Below, piece after piece: positions 797 through 31,394 of a stretch of DNA of 54,249 bases. Position numbers and translations under genes: made by a program. The stretch is from the NCBI GenBank assembly GCA_963575745.1, contig CAUYUJ010000256.1, positions 62,001-116,249 of the forward strand. The letters run 5' to 3'. The DNA comes from Prorocentrum cordatum (Eukaryota). How positions within the stretch are numbered: position 1 is the stretch's first letter; every line of letters begins with the position of its first letter. Under the pieces are notes generated by a model. That model was not told the DNA's origin. It did not search any database and saw only the letters and a program-made list of their open reading frames with translations.

Positions 797-1294
797 CCTC
801 CTCCTCCTCCTCCTCCTCCTCCTCCTCCTCCTCCTCCTCCTCCTCCTCCTCTTCTCCTACCTCCTCCTCCTCCTCCTCCTCCTCCTCCTCCCTCCATCCA
901 TCCATCCTCCCTCCCTCCCTCCCCACCACCATCTTCCCTCCCCCTCCTCCCTCCTCCCTTCCTCCCTCCCTCCCTCCCTCCTTCCGCCCTCTTCCGCCCC
1001 TCTTCCCTCCCTCATGTCCCCTCCCTCCCTCCCTCCCCCTCCCTCCACCCTCCCTCCCTCCCTTCCTCCCTCACCTCCCTCCTCCTCCTCCTCCTCCTCC
1101 TCCTCCTCCTCCCTCCCTCCCTCCCTCCCTCCTCCCTCCCTCCCTCCTCCTCCCTCCATGCCTCCTCCCGCCCTCCCACTCTCCCTCCTCCCTCCTCCCC
1201 TCCTCCTTCCTCCCTCCTCCCTCCCTCCTCCTCCTCCTCCGCCTCCTCCTCCTTTTCCTCCTTCTCCTCCTCCTCCTCCTCCTCCTCCTCCTCC
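797..1294. repeat. (CCT)n-rich tract upstream of the SL retrocopy
   Basis: Directly visible; runs straight into the SL. Confidence 0.95.
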
Positions 1295-1316
1295 TCCGTA
1301 GCCATTTTGGCTCAAG
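1295..1316 (+). other. Genomic copy of the dinoflagellate spliced leader (DinoSL), a retroposition mark
   Basis: TCCGTAGCCATTTTGGCTCAAG matches the DinoSL consensus DCCGTAGCCATTTTGGCTCAAG at 22/22. It lies 48 nt upstream of the ATG at 1365 and directly after a (CCT)n tract. Confidence 0.97.
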
Positions 1317-1364
1317 GTTGGCTCCTCTGCGCGGCCGCAGCCGTTTCGCGGCCCGCCATAGAGG

Positions 1365-3056
1365 ATGCCCCCAGCGCAGCTGCGCGCCTTGGTGCGGGAC
1401 GGTGCGGAGCGAACGCACCGACGAGGCTGGGCGAGACTCTGCGCGGACAACGCCATCCGCAAGCTTCAGGACGAGGTCCAGAAGCTGAGGGAGGAGAACG
1501 TGCAGTGCCAGGCCCAGCTGAGAGAGGCGAAGGCTGAGGCGGAGGCACAGCACACACGGAGACTGCGCGCCGACGCCGAGCCCTTCGTGACCTGCGACAC
1601 GATGTGGAAGTTTGTGAAGCCGATCGTCGAGCCGGCAGCCGAAGAGCCGTGGTGGGGCTGGCAGTGGATGCAAGCCTACGCGGAGGAGGACTGCGCGAGT
1701 GGAACGGACGGACAGTGGCAGCCTCCAGCGAGTGTGCGCGGGAGCGACGGGCAGTGGCAGCCTCAAGTCGATGGTGGAAGTACATGCGAGAAGGACGGAC
1801 AGTGGCAGCATCAAGAAGGAGCGTGCGAGAAAGACGAGCTGTGGCAGCTACAGGCGGTCGAGCAGTGGCAGGCTTGCGAGAAGTGGGAGGCGAAGATGGA
1901 GCCCGACACTATAAAGCAAAACGTGACCACCTACAGCGCCGCAATCAGGACGTGCGAGAAGTGTGAAAAGGGAAAGCAGTGGCAGCTTCATGAAGGTTTG
2001 AGTGTGGCGGTTGACTCAAGCGAGAGGCGCGAGGAGAAGTTGGAGCCCAGCACACTAGCCCATGAGGCTTGCGAGAAGCGTGAGGCGACGTTGGAGCCCG
2101 ACTTACTAGCCCACGAGGCGTGCGAGAAGTGGGAGGCGAAGTTGGAGCCTGAACCACTAGCCCACGAGGCTTGCGAGAAGAGTGAGGCGACGTTGGAGCC
2201 TGTCCCACTAGCCCACGAGGCTTGCGAGAAGCGTGTGGTGAAGTTGGAGCCCTTTGCTTGTTGTTTCTCGTATCTCCTCGTTGCCACTGCTGGATCCGCT
2301 GTGTACGAAAAGGTCAGTGCAACGTGCGTGCGAGAAGATGTGAAGGAGGAGTCAAAGGTCGAGCCCAATGCCGTCAGCTACAGACCAGATGACGACTCTG
2401 ATTGTGATAGAGTGTTTCAATTTTCGCAGGATCACGACGAGGTGGAAGATATGATCAATAAGGCGAAGTTGGAGCCAGACCCACTAGCCCACGAGGCTTG
2501 CGAGAAGCGGGCGGCGGTGTTGGAGCCATTTGCTTGTGTTTCCTCGTCTTCCCTCGTCGCCACGGCTGGGTCTGCAATGAGTGAATTGGTGTGTGAAACG
2601 CGCGTGCGTGAAGTTGGGAAGGAGGAGTCAAATGTCGAGCCTGATGCCGTCAGCTACAGTCCAGCTGACGTCGCCGGTTTTCCTGGTGATGATGATGTTG
2701 CTCTCTTTCCTAGCGACGCCTCCCAGTCTTTCGACGCCGACTCCGAAGTGCAGTACCACTTCGACGACGACTGCGAGCAGATAGAATCATTCGCAAACCC
2801 GCACGGCGTGGACGAGTCGCGAGACATATATGGGGAGCTCTGCAGTGACATGGCCGACCTGGTGTTGTTGCGCCGTCCTGCGGCGATGCGGGCCTACCTC
2901 CGTGAGAATTTCGTGCTCAACGGAACTACCGACGTCGACTTCGAGGTAGACTTCGACGCGGTATGCACCGAGCTTGCCGCCCTCGCCATGGGTGTGCGGC
3001 TGGATGAAATGGAACACCTTCTCCGTGAGCGGTTTGCTCCTGCCGTGCAGGCGTAA
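1365..3056 (+). CDS. Intronless 563-aa retrogene: N-terminal coiled-coil-like segment, degenerate PPR motif and PPR-derived tandem repeats
   Basis: Uninterrupted ATG-to-TAA ORF of non-microsatellite sequence downstream of the SL. WEAKMEP..NVTTYSAAIRTCEK..GKQWQ resembles dinoflagellate PPR motifs. It has 51-bp (17-aa) repeats with TTGGAGCC at 2040, 2091, 2142, 2193 and 2244, plus an internal duplication at offset 276 bp. Confidence 0.85.
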   Translation: MPPAQLRALVRDGAERTHRRGWARLCADNAIRKLQDEVQKLREENVQCQAQLREAKAEAEAQHTRRLRADAEPFVTCDTMWKFVKPIVEPAAEEPWWGWQWMQAYAEEDCASGTDGQWQPPASVRGSDGQWQPQVDGGSTCEKDGQWQHQEGACEKDELWQLQAVEQWQACEKWEAKMEPDTIKQNVTTYSAAIRTCEKCEKGKQWQLHEGLSVAVDSSERREEKLEPSTLAHEACEKREATLEPDLLAHEACEKWEAKLEPEPLAHEACEKSEATLEPVPLAHEACEKRVVKLEPFACCFSYLLVATAGSAVYEKVSATCVREDVKEESKVEPNAVSYRPDDDSDCDRVFQFSQDHDEVEDMINKAKLEPDPLAHEACEKRAAVLEPFACVSSSSLVATAGSAMSELVCETRVREVGKEESNVEPDAVSYSPADVAGFPGDDDVALFPSDASQSFDADSEVQYHFDDDCEQIESFANPHGVDESRDIYGELCSDMADLVLLRRPAAMRAYLRENFVLNGTTDVDFEVDFDAVCTELAALAMGVRLDEMEHLLRERFAPAVQA

Positions 3057-3247
3057 CCAGCCCAATCTGTTGGAGAGTGGAGGGTGTCTTACTACTTCGT
3101 GTACGGGTCCTTCGGGCAGTTCTGCGTTCTGTACTTGGGTTCCCGTACTGGTTCGTGTTCGCCTCCTTCTTGTTCGTCGTGTTCCCCGACAAGTTCAGAG
3201 GGTGGCCGTTCTATGGATTTCGCTATGCGATTGGTCTCATCTCATCA

Positions 3248-3832
3248 CCTCCTCCTCCTCCTCCTCCTCCTCCTCCTCCTCTTCCTCCCCCTCCTCCCCC
3301 TCCTCCTCCTCCTCCTCCTCCTCCTCCTCCTCCTCCCCCTCCCCCTCCCTCCTCCTCCTTCCTCCTCCTCCTCCTCCTCCTCCTCCTCCTCCTCCTCCTC
3401 CTCCTCCTCCTCCTCCTCCTCTCCTCCTCCGCCTCCGCTCCGCCTCCGCCTCCTCCTCCTCCTCCTCCTCCTCCTCCTCCTCCTCCTCCTGCCCTCTCCT
3501 CCTCATCCTCCTCCCCAATCCTCACTCCTCCCTCCTCCCGCCTCCCTCCTCCCTCCTCGCTCCTCACGCCTCCCTCCTCCTCCCTCCCTCTTCCCTCCTC
3601 CTGCATCCCCTGCCTCCCTCTCATCATCCCTCCCTCCCTCCCTCCCTCCTCTCTCCCTCCCACCCTCCCTCCCTCCTCCATCCCGCCTCCTCCGCCTCCG
3701 CCTCCTCTTCCTCCTCTTCCTCCCCCTCCTCCTCCTCCTTCTCCTCCTCCTCTTCCTCCTCCTCCGTCTCTGCTTCTCCTCCTCCTCCTCCGCCTCCTCC
3801 TCCTCCTCCTCCTCCTCCTCCGCCTCCTCCTC
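3248..3832. repeat. (CCT)n-rich tract downstream of the SL retrocopy
   Basis: Directly visible; begins after GGTCTCATCTCATCA. Confidence 0.95.
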
Positions 3833-4273
3833 ATCCATCATTCGGCTGCTTGTCCGAGATCTGGTTGGGCCAGGCTGGCTTGCCGCACGCGCGAGCGGGC
3901 GCGATTGCCGCCACGGGCGCTTCGCTCGCCCAGAGGCTTGCCCCAGAAAGAGATGTGAACCCAGCCTCGGCATTCCTGGACCCAAGATCGATGCATACGC
4001 CTTTCTGGCTCGGCCAAGGAGGCATCTGCACCGATCCTGGGCCCAGGACGAGCCTGGTCAGTATCGGTGCATGTGCACACTTCTCGTCGCCCGACCAGGG
4101 GGGGGGAGAAGGAGGAAGCACGACCACAGAACTTCACCTGACGCGGCCTCGATCGCTGAGCGAATCAAAACGTCGCCAGGCAAATGCCAGGAAGGGGCGC
4201 GGCGGGGGGCCGAGGGCGCAGGGGCGCAGCCAACCCCGATGCGCAACACGCAGCCCGAGCGTGTTAACACAGA

Positions 4274-26834: not shown

Positions 26835-31394
<4,560 letters not shown>

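What the first reader, a model, noticed from the sequence alone, without database searches (positions are those of the whole stretch)
1295..3247. Full-length SL-headed retrocopy inside (CCT)n with no poly(A): candidate microsatellite-associated mobile gene
Seen: a perfect 22-nt SL, 48-nt leader, intact intronless ORF and ~190-nt trailer ending ...GATTGGTCTCATCTCATCA. It has (CCT)n on both sides, no A-tail, and faces opposite to the intron-rich gene models nearby. Known: DinoSL is added to mRNA by trans-splicing, and genomic SL copies mark mRNA recycling. Inference: an unmutated SL with microsatellite-only junctions suggests a recent full-length insertion primed in (CCT)n or ending in a short-repeat tail. 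It may be a non-autonomous SL-capped retroelement family rather than an ordinary retrogene.
Basis: partly seen in the sequence, partly recalled or inferred. Interest (0 to 1): 0.78.

Follow-up and report, generated by a model that had tools for sequence, protein, structure and literature searches.

The report
Spliced-leader retrogene inside CCT microsatellite
A reverse-transcribed copy of a dinoflagellate messenger RNA, still carrying its spliced leader but no poly(A) tail, sits inside a CCT simple repeat; the same layout recurs in other dinoflagellate DNA and hints at which jumping-gene machinery makes such gene copies.

Summary
A perfect 22-nt DinoSL (1295-1316) is the only one in the window. 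It is followed by a 48-nt leader, an intact 563-codon ORF (1365-3056) and a 191-nt trailer with no A-run longer than 2. (CCT)n-type tracts flank it at 797-1297 and 3248-3836. It is a processed retrocopy of a trans-spliced mRNA for a lineage-specific protein with PPR-like repeats.

I found no second copy in the window, in the scan's index or in three public collections. The whole genome was not available, so the 'non-autonomous family' reading is unsupported but not excluded.

The layout itself recurs. A metagenome scan found 27 GC-rich contigs where a pyrimidine microsatellite runs straight into the SL. In the four contigs that show both ends, the same repeat follows the cargo and there is no poly(A). 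Three of the 27 are SL-headed LINEs with an APE-type endonuclease, and a relative of one also carries a reverse transcriptase. In an unselected sample, 4 of 11 retrocopy-like SL sites abut a microsatellite.

Best reading: insertion into the repeat by LINE-type target-primed reverse transcription. The orientation rule and the enrichment are unproven.

This scan noted the same pattern earlier on other DNA of this genome. The retrogene papers I searched do not mention it.

The parts
797..1294 (+). Upstream flank: composite pyrimidine microsatellite of (CCT)n with (CCCT)n blocks. The last ~39 nt are pure (CCT)n and run in phase into the SL.
   Evidence: TRF period 3, 155.7 copies, 78% matches; sequence read; tract map.
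1295..1316 (+). DNA-encoded dinoflagellate spliced leader, 22 of 22 matches to DCCGTAGCCATTTTGGCTCAAG with D = T. The first 3 nt (TCC) are shared with the repeat.
   Evidence: Consensus as printed in PMC5585692 (passage).
1317..1364 (+). 48-nt leader (5' UTR). It holds two possible decayed SL relics: TTGGCTC at 1319-1325 and a 13-of-22 match at 1334-1355.
   Evidence: Each feature has P of about 0.01-0.02 against random 48-nt pieces of the window or shuffles. Suggestive only.
1365..3056 (+). Intact intronless ORF of 563 aa plus stop. It has an N-terminal coiled-coil-like stretch, DGQWQ repeats, 17-aa 'CEK..LEP..LAHEA' repeats and a unique C-terminal domain of about 120 aa.
   Evidence: No Pfam family reaches its cut-off. 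Relatives.
2020..2252 (+). Internal 51-bp tandem repeat (4.6 copies) that encodes the 17-aa units. A further 210-219-bp duplication links 2185-2403 with 2461-2679.
3057..3247 (+). 191-nt trailer (3' UTR) ending ...GGTCTCATCTCATCA. It has no poly(A) and no unusually stable 3' structure.
   Evidence: longest A run 2; z = -0.09 for the last 100 nt. A ~96% relative in run X2 shares 2804-3145.
3248..3836 (+). Downstream flank: (CCT)n, pure for the first ~34 nt, then mixed (CCT)n/(CCCT)n, mirroring the upstream tract.
   Evidence: TRF period 3, 188.7 copies, 79% matches.

Best explanation
This is a young processed retrocopy (retrogene) of a trans-spliced mRNA. The mRNA encodes a lineage-specific protein with degenerate PPR-like repeats. 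The copy is integrated into a pre-existing composite (CCT)n/(CCCT)n tract, with its sense strand on the pyrimidine strand.

Shown:
- The DNA-encoded SL, which can only come from a mature mRNA.
- The intact intronless ORF.
- The lack of poly(A).
- The repeat on both sides.
- Recurrence of this layout in unrelated dinoflagellate DNA.
- SL-headed APE/RT LINEs in the same position next to (CCT)n.

Inferred:
- A LINE that is associated with (CCT)n nicked the purine (AGG)n strand.
- That 3' end primed reverse transcription on the mRNA inside or at the end of its 3' UTR, at a CU-rich patch, and not on the poly(A) tail. So no A-tail was copied, and the repeat takes the place of a tail.
- The 5' end was joined through microhomology between the first bases of the SL (TCC) and the repeat.
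- The (CCT)n tract plus the AG inside the SL (1300-1301) then offers a ready trans-splice acceptor.

The cargo is, as far as can be seen, a single host-gene copy and not a repeated element.
For: - SL: perfect and unique in the window.
- ORF and trailer: intact ORF; no A run longer than 2.
- Flanks: CCT arrays on both sides.
- Copy number: no other copy in the window.
- Constraint among relatives: 17 of the 38 listed coding differences to contigs of other runs are synonymous, against 22% expected (P = 0.001). That call listed 40 of 96 differences; the other two listed ones lie in the 3' UTR.
- Expression of a close relative: a 97%-identical 190-aa fragment is in a transcriptome-derived protein set.
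- Recurrence: of 32 metagenome loci with a pyrimidine run abutting the SL, 27 are GC-rich microsatellite contexts. L151, L135, L139 and L129 show the 3' end, and in all 4 the same repeat follows the cargo with no A run of 8 or more.
- Machinery: L132, L145 and L148 carry Exo_endo_phos above the Pfam cut-off directly behind the SL. L122 is 87% identical to L145 in DNA. A 53%-identical relative of L145 (P0044, 1604 aa) carries RVT_1 plus Exo_endo_phos.
- 5' junction: the repeat is in phase with the SL's TCC in 8 of 13 distinct (CCT)n loci (P = 0.035) and in this window.
- Unselected sample: 4 of 11 retrocopy-like SL sites in MAG contigs abut a microsatellite.
- Precedent: APE-type LINEs that target microsatellites are established in animals (PMC3812793, passages).
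Against: - No RT or EN gene lies in this window: 0 of 121 ORFs hit Pfam.
- No LINE 3' end was seen anywhere, so a (CCT)n tail or target preference of the LINE is inferred from its 5' context only.
- The metagenome pattern required a pyrimidine run upstream. It cannot show enrichment or an orientation rule.
- In the unselected sample the repeats were (TG)n-like, (TCA)n, (AG)n-type and (GACA)n. One is in purine orientation. None reappears within 1.4-3 kb downstream. This fits a general affinity for repeats, or for their edges, at least as well as a (CCT)n-specific enzyme.
- If simple repeats make up 25% of the source genomes, 4 of 11 is not significant (P = 0.29).
- No parent gene with introns was found, so intron loss is not shown.
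- The native mRNA 3' end is unknown, so 'primed inside the 3' UTR' is untested.
Confidence: 0.6

Rival explanations
1. One reading: the unit SL, cargo and repeat tail is a non-autonomous retroelement family. Copies that sit in (CCT)n are transcribed into the downstream repeat. The resulting (CCU)n 3' tail base-pairs with nicked (AGG)n targets, so they are copied again and again.
For: - The leader holds two possible decayed SL relics, as expected after repeated rounds of recycling. Relic identities of 50-63% are reported for third relics in PMC3229502 (passage).
- L128 and L135 are 97% identical cargos that both lie behind (CCT)n, with different junction phase and different upstream repeat length.
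- Several diverged variants of this gene appear in run X2.
Against: - No second copy of 1317-3247 was found in the window, the scan's index or the genome and viral collections.
- It has no similarity to the 32 metagenome loci.
- Unique parts of the ORF have depth 2.6-4.2 in DNA run X1, near the lowest values in that table. The tool warns that depth is not copy number.
- Cargos in this layout are mostly unrelated host genes such as SART-1, DnaJ and Z-alpha.
- Relics are common in ordinary dinoflagellate retrogenes.
Confidence: 0.12
2. LINE-independent capture: a free cDNA of the mRNA was ligated into a double-strand break. The break arose in a fragile polypurine/polypyrimidine mirror repeat, and microhomology end joining trimmed off the A-tail.
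For: - No TSD or poly(A) is visible.
- There is microhomology at the 5' junction.
- In the unselected sample, SL copies abut repeats of four different motifs, one in purine orientation, with nothing matching downstream. A motif-specific endonuclease does not predict this.
- No RT or EN lies in the window.
Against: - End joining usually truncates inserts. Here the complete SL is kept, as it is in all 27 GC-rich metagenome loci, although that scan required an intact SL.
- SL-headed LINEs occupy the same position next to the same repeats, which points to their own insertion route.
- The fragility of such repeats in dinoflagellates is recalled general knowledge and was not tested.
Confidence: 0.17
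3. An ordinary L1-style retrocopy that landed in an abundant repeat by chance. Its short A-tail was later lost by microsatellite slippage or replaced by repeat expansion.
For: - (CCT)n/(AGG)n tracts cover 6.1% of the window by a strict criterion, so a chance hit is not rare.
Against: - The 22-nt SL and the ORF are unmutated, and the repeat immediately beside both ends is pure. This leaves little time for tail erosion.
- The same tail-less layout occurs in 4 of 4 other loci where both ends are seen.
Confidence: 0.08
4. An assembly artefact: a cDNA-like or chimeric read was joined into a repeat tract.
For: - Both junctions lie in simple sequence.
- No laid contig bridges them with 31 or more unique letters on both sides.
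Against: - Independent metagenome assemblies show the same architecture.
- A run guessed to be DNA holds 372- and 766-nt contigs of the ORF at 99.2% and 98.6% identity.
Confidence: 0.03

Closest known systems
DinoSL-tagged retrogenes ('recycled processed cDNAs') of dinoflagellates. Slamovits and Keeling 2008 is recalled and was seen only as cited in PMC3229502 and PMC5585692. Song et al. 2017 is PMC5585692; Song et al. 2018 is PMC6050394; the 2025 Open Biology survey is PMC12014239.
   Same: The DNA-encoded SL sits directly ahead of the 5' UTR of an intronless ORF. Possible decayed relics lie behind the full SL. The AG inside the SL is available for re-trans-splicing.
   Different: Searched by term, these papers have 0 occurrences of 'microsatellite' (PMC5585692, PMC6050394 and PMC12014239) and 0 of 'target site'. 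PMC12014239 also has 0 of 'simple repeat' and 'insertion site'. They call the machinery presumed LINEs with direct evidence lacking (passages). Here the copy lies inside a (CCT)n tract, carries the full 22-nt SL and has no poly(A).
Microsatellite-specific APE-type non-LTR retrotransposons of animals: Kibi (TC)n, Koshi (TTC)n, Waldo (ACAY)n, Mino (AC)n, Dong (TAA)n (PMC3812793, passages).
   Same: The insertion is inside a simple repeat with the repeat on both sides and no poly(A). Related environmental loci show APE/RT LINEs in that same context behind (CCT)n and (CT)n.
   Different: The element here encodes no EN or RT; it is a host mRNA copy. The dinoflagellate LINEs begin with a trans-spliced leader. 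Neither their clade nor their target specificity has been established.
L1-mediated processed pseudogenes and retrogenes of mammals (general knowledge; mentioned in PMC5585692 and PMC12014239 passages).
   Same: A host mRNA is copied in trans by a retrotransposon's enzymes. The copy is intronless and full length from the 5' end of the mRNA.
   Different: There is no poly(A) tail, no recognisable target-site duplication and no A/T-rich target. The insertion lies in a GC-rich pyrimidine repeat.
SINE-like non-autonomous elements that share a repeat-ending 3' tail with a partner LINE ('stringent' LINE/SINE pairs; recalled, not read here).
   Same: The element would depend on a LINE's enzymes and end in the LINE's kind of short-repeat tail.
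   Different: No multi-copy family was found, no 3' sequence shared with a LINE could be tested, and no conserved 3' hairpin was found. The cargo is a 1.7-kb protein-coding mRNA.

Membership tests
DinoSL-tagged retrogene (processed retrocopy) | DNA-encoded DinoSL (full or relic) directly upstream of the 5' UTR | tested here: met
   22 of 22 matches at 1295-1316; unique in the window.
DinoSL-tagged retrogene (processed retrocopy) | Intronless coding region compared with an intron-bearing or SL-less parent gene | not testable with these tools
   The ORF is uninterrupted. No parent locus could be found: no genome is held and there were no related loci.
DinoSL-tagged retrogene (processed retrocopy) | Not an SL RNA gene, in which the SL exon is followed by a short GU-intron | tested here: met
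   GT follows the SL at 1317-1318, but a 48-nt leader and a 563-aa ORF come next. Six SL RNA-like sites in MAG contigs share the continuation GTAC, which is absent here. No Rfam family was found in the window.
L1-type processed pseudogene | 3' poly(A) tract | tested here: not met
   The longest A run in 3057-3300 is 2.
L1-type processed pseudogene | Target-site duplication flanking the insert | tested here: inconclusive
   Both flanks are (CCT)n, so any duplication is invisible.
Microsatellite-specific APE-type LINE | Encodes an endonuclease and a reverse transcriptase | tested here: not met
   The ORF has no Pfam family above its cut-off. The element is cargo, not a LINE.
Microsatellite-specific APE-type LINE (as the machinery used) | Insertions lie inside one repeat motif, in a fixed orientation, with the repeat in place of poly(A) | tested here: inconclusive
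   Location and tail are met here and in L151, L135, L139 and L129. LINEs are seen behind (CCT)n and (CT)n. Orientation and specificity are untestable because the scan pattern fixed the orientation, and the unselected sample shows other motifs.
Non-autonomous retroelement family (SINE-like) | Many copies sharing both termini | tested here: inconclusive
   There are 0 further copies in the window, the scan's index, the 32 metagenome loci and the genome and viral collections. The organism's own genome could not be searched.
Non-autonomous retroelement family (SINE-like) | 3' end shared with, or recognised by, a partner LINE | not testable with these tools
   No LINE 3' end was obtained; the L145 ORF is still open where the held sequence ends. 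No common 3' hairpin was found.
PPR protein (for the cargo) | Pfam PPR repeats above the cut-off | tested here: not met
   The ORF has no PPR hit. Weak relatives P0008, P0013, P0014, P0020, P0022 and P0025 are strong PPR proteins, so the 17-aa units look PPR-derived but degenerate.

The most novel reading that the evidence does not exclude
In GC-rich dinoflagellates, the long-sought retroposition machinery is a set of spliced-leader-capped APE/RT LINEs that insert into pyrimidine microsatellites. A host mRNA that once lands in (CCT)n is then transcribed into the repeat and gains a (CCU)n tail that pairs with nicked (AGG)n targets. It thereby becomes a preferred template. Ordinary genes would in this way be converted into self-propagating units with an SL head and a repeat tail, and this locus would be one such unit.
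Probability: 0.15. Interest if true: 0.8.

Novelty: new variant of a known kind. Interest (0 to 1): 0.55.

Why it matters
About a fifth of dinoflagellate genes are reported to be retrogenes (PMC5585692 and PMC6050394 passages). Yet the papers I read say the enzymes and insertion sites are unknown, with direct evidence lacking.

Clean copies like this one have a full SL, no poly(A) and a repeat on both sides. Together with SL-headed APE/RT LINEs in the same position, they give a concrete and testable hypothesis for the machinery and its targets. They also suggest why such copies are expressed on arrival: a polypyrimidine tract followed by the SL's own AG forms a ready trans-splice acceptor.

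If the link is only a general affinity of cDNA for repeats, the locus is an ordinary, well-preserved retrogene.

Tried and rejected
- **Sequencing runs:** no RNA holder is listed. Laying four runs gave only short contigs.
- **'Empty site' joints:** the many joints 1298>3246 have sides of about 20 nt of pure (CCT)n, so they are not empty sites. No listed contig bridges either junction. The mRNA 3' end could not be read.
- **Copy number from depth:** this is only a hint, because the tool warns against it.
- **Scan's index by sequence:** I queried the ORF, the trailer and the L145 LINE protein and got 0 windows each. Nothing was noted near this place.
- **Related loci for the ORF:** none in genome contigs or viral contigs.
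- **Pfam on neighbours:** 0 of 121 other long ORFs of the window hit. 0 of 26 ORFs flanking or within metagenome loci hit, so no RT was found next to the repeats.
- **Shared 3' hairpin:** rejected. The z-scores are -0.09 (window), -3.1, -4.0, -0.6 and -1.4.
- **SL hits in IMG/VR:** useless as a control, because 124 of 132 are AT-rich giant-virus contexts.
- **SL RNA gene reading:** rejected.
- **Structure and complex prediction:** not run. They would not bear on the insertion question.
Full report
**Observation.** The window holds one spliced leader. TCCGTAGCCATTTTGGCTCAAG lies at 1295-1316 on the + strand. It is the only match to the 21-nt core at up to 3 mismatches, with none in 100 shuffles. 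It is also the only match to the 22-mer at up to 6 mismatches on either strand. It matches the DinoSL consensus printed in PMC5585692 (passage).

The rest of the unit follows in order:
- a 48-nt leader (1317-1364);
- an ATG-to-stop ORF of 563 codons (1365-3056), which is about 1e-8 likely by chance at this composition;
- a 191-nt trailer ending GATTGGTCTCATCTCATCA (3057-3247), whose longest A run is 2.

TRF finds period-3 CCT arrays at 797-1297 and 3248-3836. Both are composite. Pure (CCT)n lies next to the insert and (CCCT)n-rich stretches lie farther out on either side. This looks like one old tract split by the insert.

The SL's first three bases (TCC) continue the repeat in phase, so the 5' boundary is ambiguous by up to 3 nt. 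None of 121 other long ORFs of the window hits Pfam, and no gene models were at hand.

**What the cargo is.** No Pfam family reaches its cut-off for the ORF. The ORF has several parts:
- a coiled-coil-like N-terminus;
- DGQWQ repeats;
- 17-aa 'CEK..LEP..LAHEA' units encoded by a 51-bp tandem repeat;
- a duplicated unit of about 70 aa;
- a unique C-terminal domain.

The word-indexed protein search gave 4 weak relatives at 31-36% identity. The exhaustive search gave 39 proteins at E of 0.001 or better:
- a 190-aa fragment 97% identical to residues 178-367, from a transcriptome-derived EukProt record;
- a 67% match to the N-terminus;
- a 48% match to the C-terminal domain;
- otherwise repeat-only hits, of which 6 of the 11 proteins I scanned are strong PPR proteins.

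So this is a lineage-specific gene whose repeats look like degenerate PPR motifs. Its function is unknown.

Contigs of other runs carry close relatives:
- 99.2% and 98.6% identity over 372 and 766 nt in X1;
- about 96% over 2804-3145 in X2, which includes part of the 3' UTR and a 10-nt insertion.

Of the 40 differences that call listed (56 more were not shown), 38 are coding and 17 of these are synonymous, against 22% expected (P = 0.001). The gene family therefore evolves under constraint.

**Is it a retrocopy?** The SL is added to mRNAs after transcription, and its presence in DNA marks re-integration of an mRNA (PMC5585692, PMC6050394, PMC3229502 passages). That is the decisive argument.

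It is not an SL RNA gene. Six SL RNA-like sites found in MAG contigs all continue with GTAC. This locus continues into a leader and a long ORF, and Rfam finds nothing in the window.

The leader may hold two decayed relics: TTGGCTC at 1319-1325 and a 13-of-22 match at 1334-1355. Each has P of about 0.01-0.02. This is in the range of identities reported for old relics (50-63%, PMC3229502). It suggests, but does not prove, that the gene lineage was recycled before.

A parent with introns could not be sought. No genome is held, and there are no related loci in the genome or viral collections.

**Is it a family?** I found no second copy in any of these places:
- the window, where blastn returned only the self-hit and internal repeats;
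- the scan's index, queried with the ORF and the trailer;
- the 32 metagenome loci;
- the two collections above.

Unique parts of the ORF have depth 2.6-4.2 in run X1, which is low, but the tool warns that depth is not copy number. The reading 'a repeated non-autonomous element rather than an ordinary retrogene' is thus unsupported. It remains open because the organism's genome could not be searched.

**Is the microsatellite context meaningful?** In this window alone it is not. (CCT)n/(AGG)n tracts make up 6.1% of the window (24 tracts).

I therefore scanned public metagenome contigs for twelve pyrimidines, then D, then the SL core. This gave 32 loci. Five are AT-rich, with a T-rich run (mostly poly-T) ahead of the SL; four of these have D = A. 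The other 27 are GC-rich (26 distinct, since L130 and L140 are one locus). In these a microsatellite runs straight into TCCG of the SL. By my reading of those tables:
- 13 distinct loci have (CCT)n-type repeats;
- 7 have (CT)n;
- the rest have (CTTTCT)n, (CCCT)n or irregular runs.

Cargos are mostly unrelated and include SART-1, DnaJ and Z-alpha genes.

Four loci show the 3' end: L151, L135, L139 and L129. In all four the cargo is followed by the same kind of repeat, and none has an A run of 8 or more. The junctions are:

| Locus | 3' junction |
|---|---|
| L151 | ...GCTCCATCCATCC\|CCT |
| L135 | ...AATCCTCTCT\|CCT |
| L139 | ...GTCGCGT\|CCT |
| L129 | ...CAGTTG\|CCT |
| This window | ...TCTCATCTCATCA\|CCT |

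Three of the five junctions have a CU-rich patch before the pure repeat.

L132, L145 and L148 carry an APE-type endonuclease domain above the Pfam cut-off directly behind the SL. L122 is 87% identical to L145 in DNA. A 53%-identical relative of L145 carries RVT_1 plus Exo_endo_phos, and two further relatives are annotated in a dinoflagellate genome. So SL-headed LINEs occupy the very position that this retrocopy occupies.

The repeat is in phase with the SL's TCC in 8 of 13 distinct (CCT)n loci (P = 0.035) and in 5 of 6 pure (CT)n loci (P = 0.11). This hints at microhomology at the 5' joint.

**Limits of that evidence.** The pattern demanded a pyrimidine run upstream, so it cannot show enrichment or an orientation rule.

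As an unselected sample I took all exact SL cores in prokaryote MAG contigs, where dinoflagellate DNA occurs as contamination. There are 20 unique sites. They break down as follows:
- 6 are SL RNA-like;
- 2 have too little upstream sequence;
- 1 is ambiguous;
- 11 are retrocopy-like.

Of these 11, four abut a microsatellite: L152 (TG/GTGCGTGT)n, L155 (TCA)n, L165 (AGAGAGAC)n and L167 (GACA)n. That is an excess if repeats cover 6-10% of the genomes (P = 0.003-0.019), but not if they cover 25% (P = 0.29). Polarella is reported to have about 25% simple repeats (PMC7245778 passage).

The motifs differ, one is in purine orientation, and none reappears within 1.4-3 kb downstream. This fits a general affinity of SL copies for repeats or their edges. 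It also fits several repeat-specific LINE families. I cannot tell which.

**Mechanism.** The best-supported account is LINE-type target-primed reverse transcription inside the repeat, in three inferred steps:
1. The purine strand is nicked.
2. Its end primes on the mRNA at or inside the 3' UTR and not on the A-tail.
3. The 5' end is joined by SL/repeat microhomology.

What is shown:
- the retrocopy;
- the missing tail;
- the flanks;
- recurrence of the layout;
- the co-located LINEs.

What is inferred:
- which strand is nicked;
- where priming occurs;
- the identity of the enzyme.

The rivals are these:
- capture of free cDNA at a break in a fragile repeat;
- a chance landing with later loss of the tail;
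- the family model;
- an assembly artefact.

Microsatellite-specific APE LINEs are known in animals, such as Kibi, Koshi, Waldo, Mino and Dong (PMC3812793). The principle therefore has precedent. A spliced-leader head and trans-mobilised host mRNAs would be the new elements.

**What is in print.** I searched the library seven times:
- for dinoflagellate retrogenes, LINEs and repeats;
- for microsatellite-specific LINEs;
- for viruses and the leader.

I read passages, not whole texts, of PMC6050394, PMC5585692, PMC12014239, PMC8045281, PMC7245778, PMC3229502 and PMC3812793. Term counts were as follows:

| Paper | Terms with 0 occurrences |
|---|---|
| PMC5585692 | microsatellite, target site |
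| PMC6050394 | microsatellite; target site |
| PMC12014239 | microsatellite; target site, simple repeat, insertion site |
| PMC8045281 | microsatellite |
| PMC7245778 | microsatellite |

In the passages I saw from PMC8045281 and PMC7245778, simple repeats are discussed only as genome content. Slamovits and Keeling 2008 is not held and is recalled. Supplements were not opened.

**Earlier notes of this scan.** One search shows that the scan already reported, on other pieces of this genome:
- microsatellite, SL, cargo, microsatellite inserts;
- SL-capped LINEs inside (TCC)n;
- one retrocopy with poly(A) and a 16-bp duplication.

I re-derived the first two kinds of observation on public DNA. I could not check them in this genome.

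**Verdict.** The locus is a well-preserved DinoSL retrogene of a known kind. Its variant layout, inside (CCT)n and without poly(A), recurs and points to LINE-type, repeat-associated insertion. The 'mobile gene family' claim is not supported.

Noticed in passing
L001-L119 (IMG/VR contigs, mostly giant-virus MAG bins); also L120, L124, L133, L149: The exact DinoSL core occurs at 134 unique sites in these loci. Of the 132 sites with at least 60 nt upstream, 124 are AT-rich. In those 124, positions -50 to -47 are A in 98-100%. TTGA[AT]A or ATGA[AT]A starts at -46 to -44 in 105 of 124. The SL's first base is A in 124 of 124. An ATG follows after a median of 47 nt, with an ORF of at least 100 aa in 73%. 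This looks like a mimivirus-type early promoter box (AAAATTGA, recalled) at a fixed distance ahead of a DNA-encoded host spliced leader on many genes. That would mean giant viruses of dinoflagellates hard-code the host leader. In one search, none of the 12 listed papers holds 'DinoSL' together with 'Mimiviridae' or 'AAAATTGA'. In one search, the listed preprint on a dinoflagellate giant virus has 0 occurrences of 'spliced leader'.
   Followed up: partly
L160, around 3001-3021 (- strand): A bare SL core sits between two copies of the 19-nt sequence TTTTGCTTGCAGGCGTGAG. This looks like an insertion of the leader alone with a target-site duplication.
   Followed up: no
L128 and L135: These two cargos are 97% identical and encode an ORF of about 340 aa with no Pfam family. 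Both lie directly behind (CCT)n but differ in junction phase and upstream repeat length (19 nt against at least 32 nt). They are either two insertions of one cargo or one locus with repeat-length variation.
   Followed up: partly
window, whole length: The window has 24 (CCT)n/(AGG)n tracts: 13 on the pyrimidine strand and 11 on the purine strand, covering 6.1% of the window. Polarity switches along the window. The tracts at 27140-27233 and 29474-29546 open with the same AGGAAAGGAGGAGG... sequence, so they may be a duplication.
   Followed up: no
P0005: The 97%-identical fragment of this dinoflagellate-type ORF is filed in EukProt under a green-alga transcriptome label. This suggests cross-contamination of that transcriptome.
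   Followed up: no
L126 and L141; L163: L126 and L141 share a long ORF (at least 1074 aa, no Pfam hit) behind (CT)n, and in L126 the SL is followed by a perfect 15-nt relic. L163 shows an SL followed by two perfect relics. Both are textbook repeated recycling.
   Followed up: no
L137, last ~30 nt: The contig ends in what looks like a sequencing-adapter sequence (recalled), so that end is an artefact.
   Followed up: no
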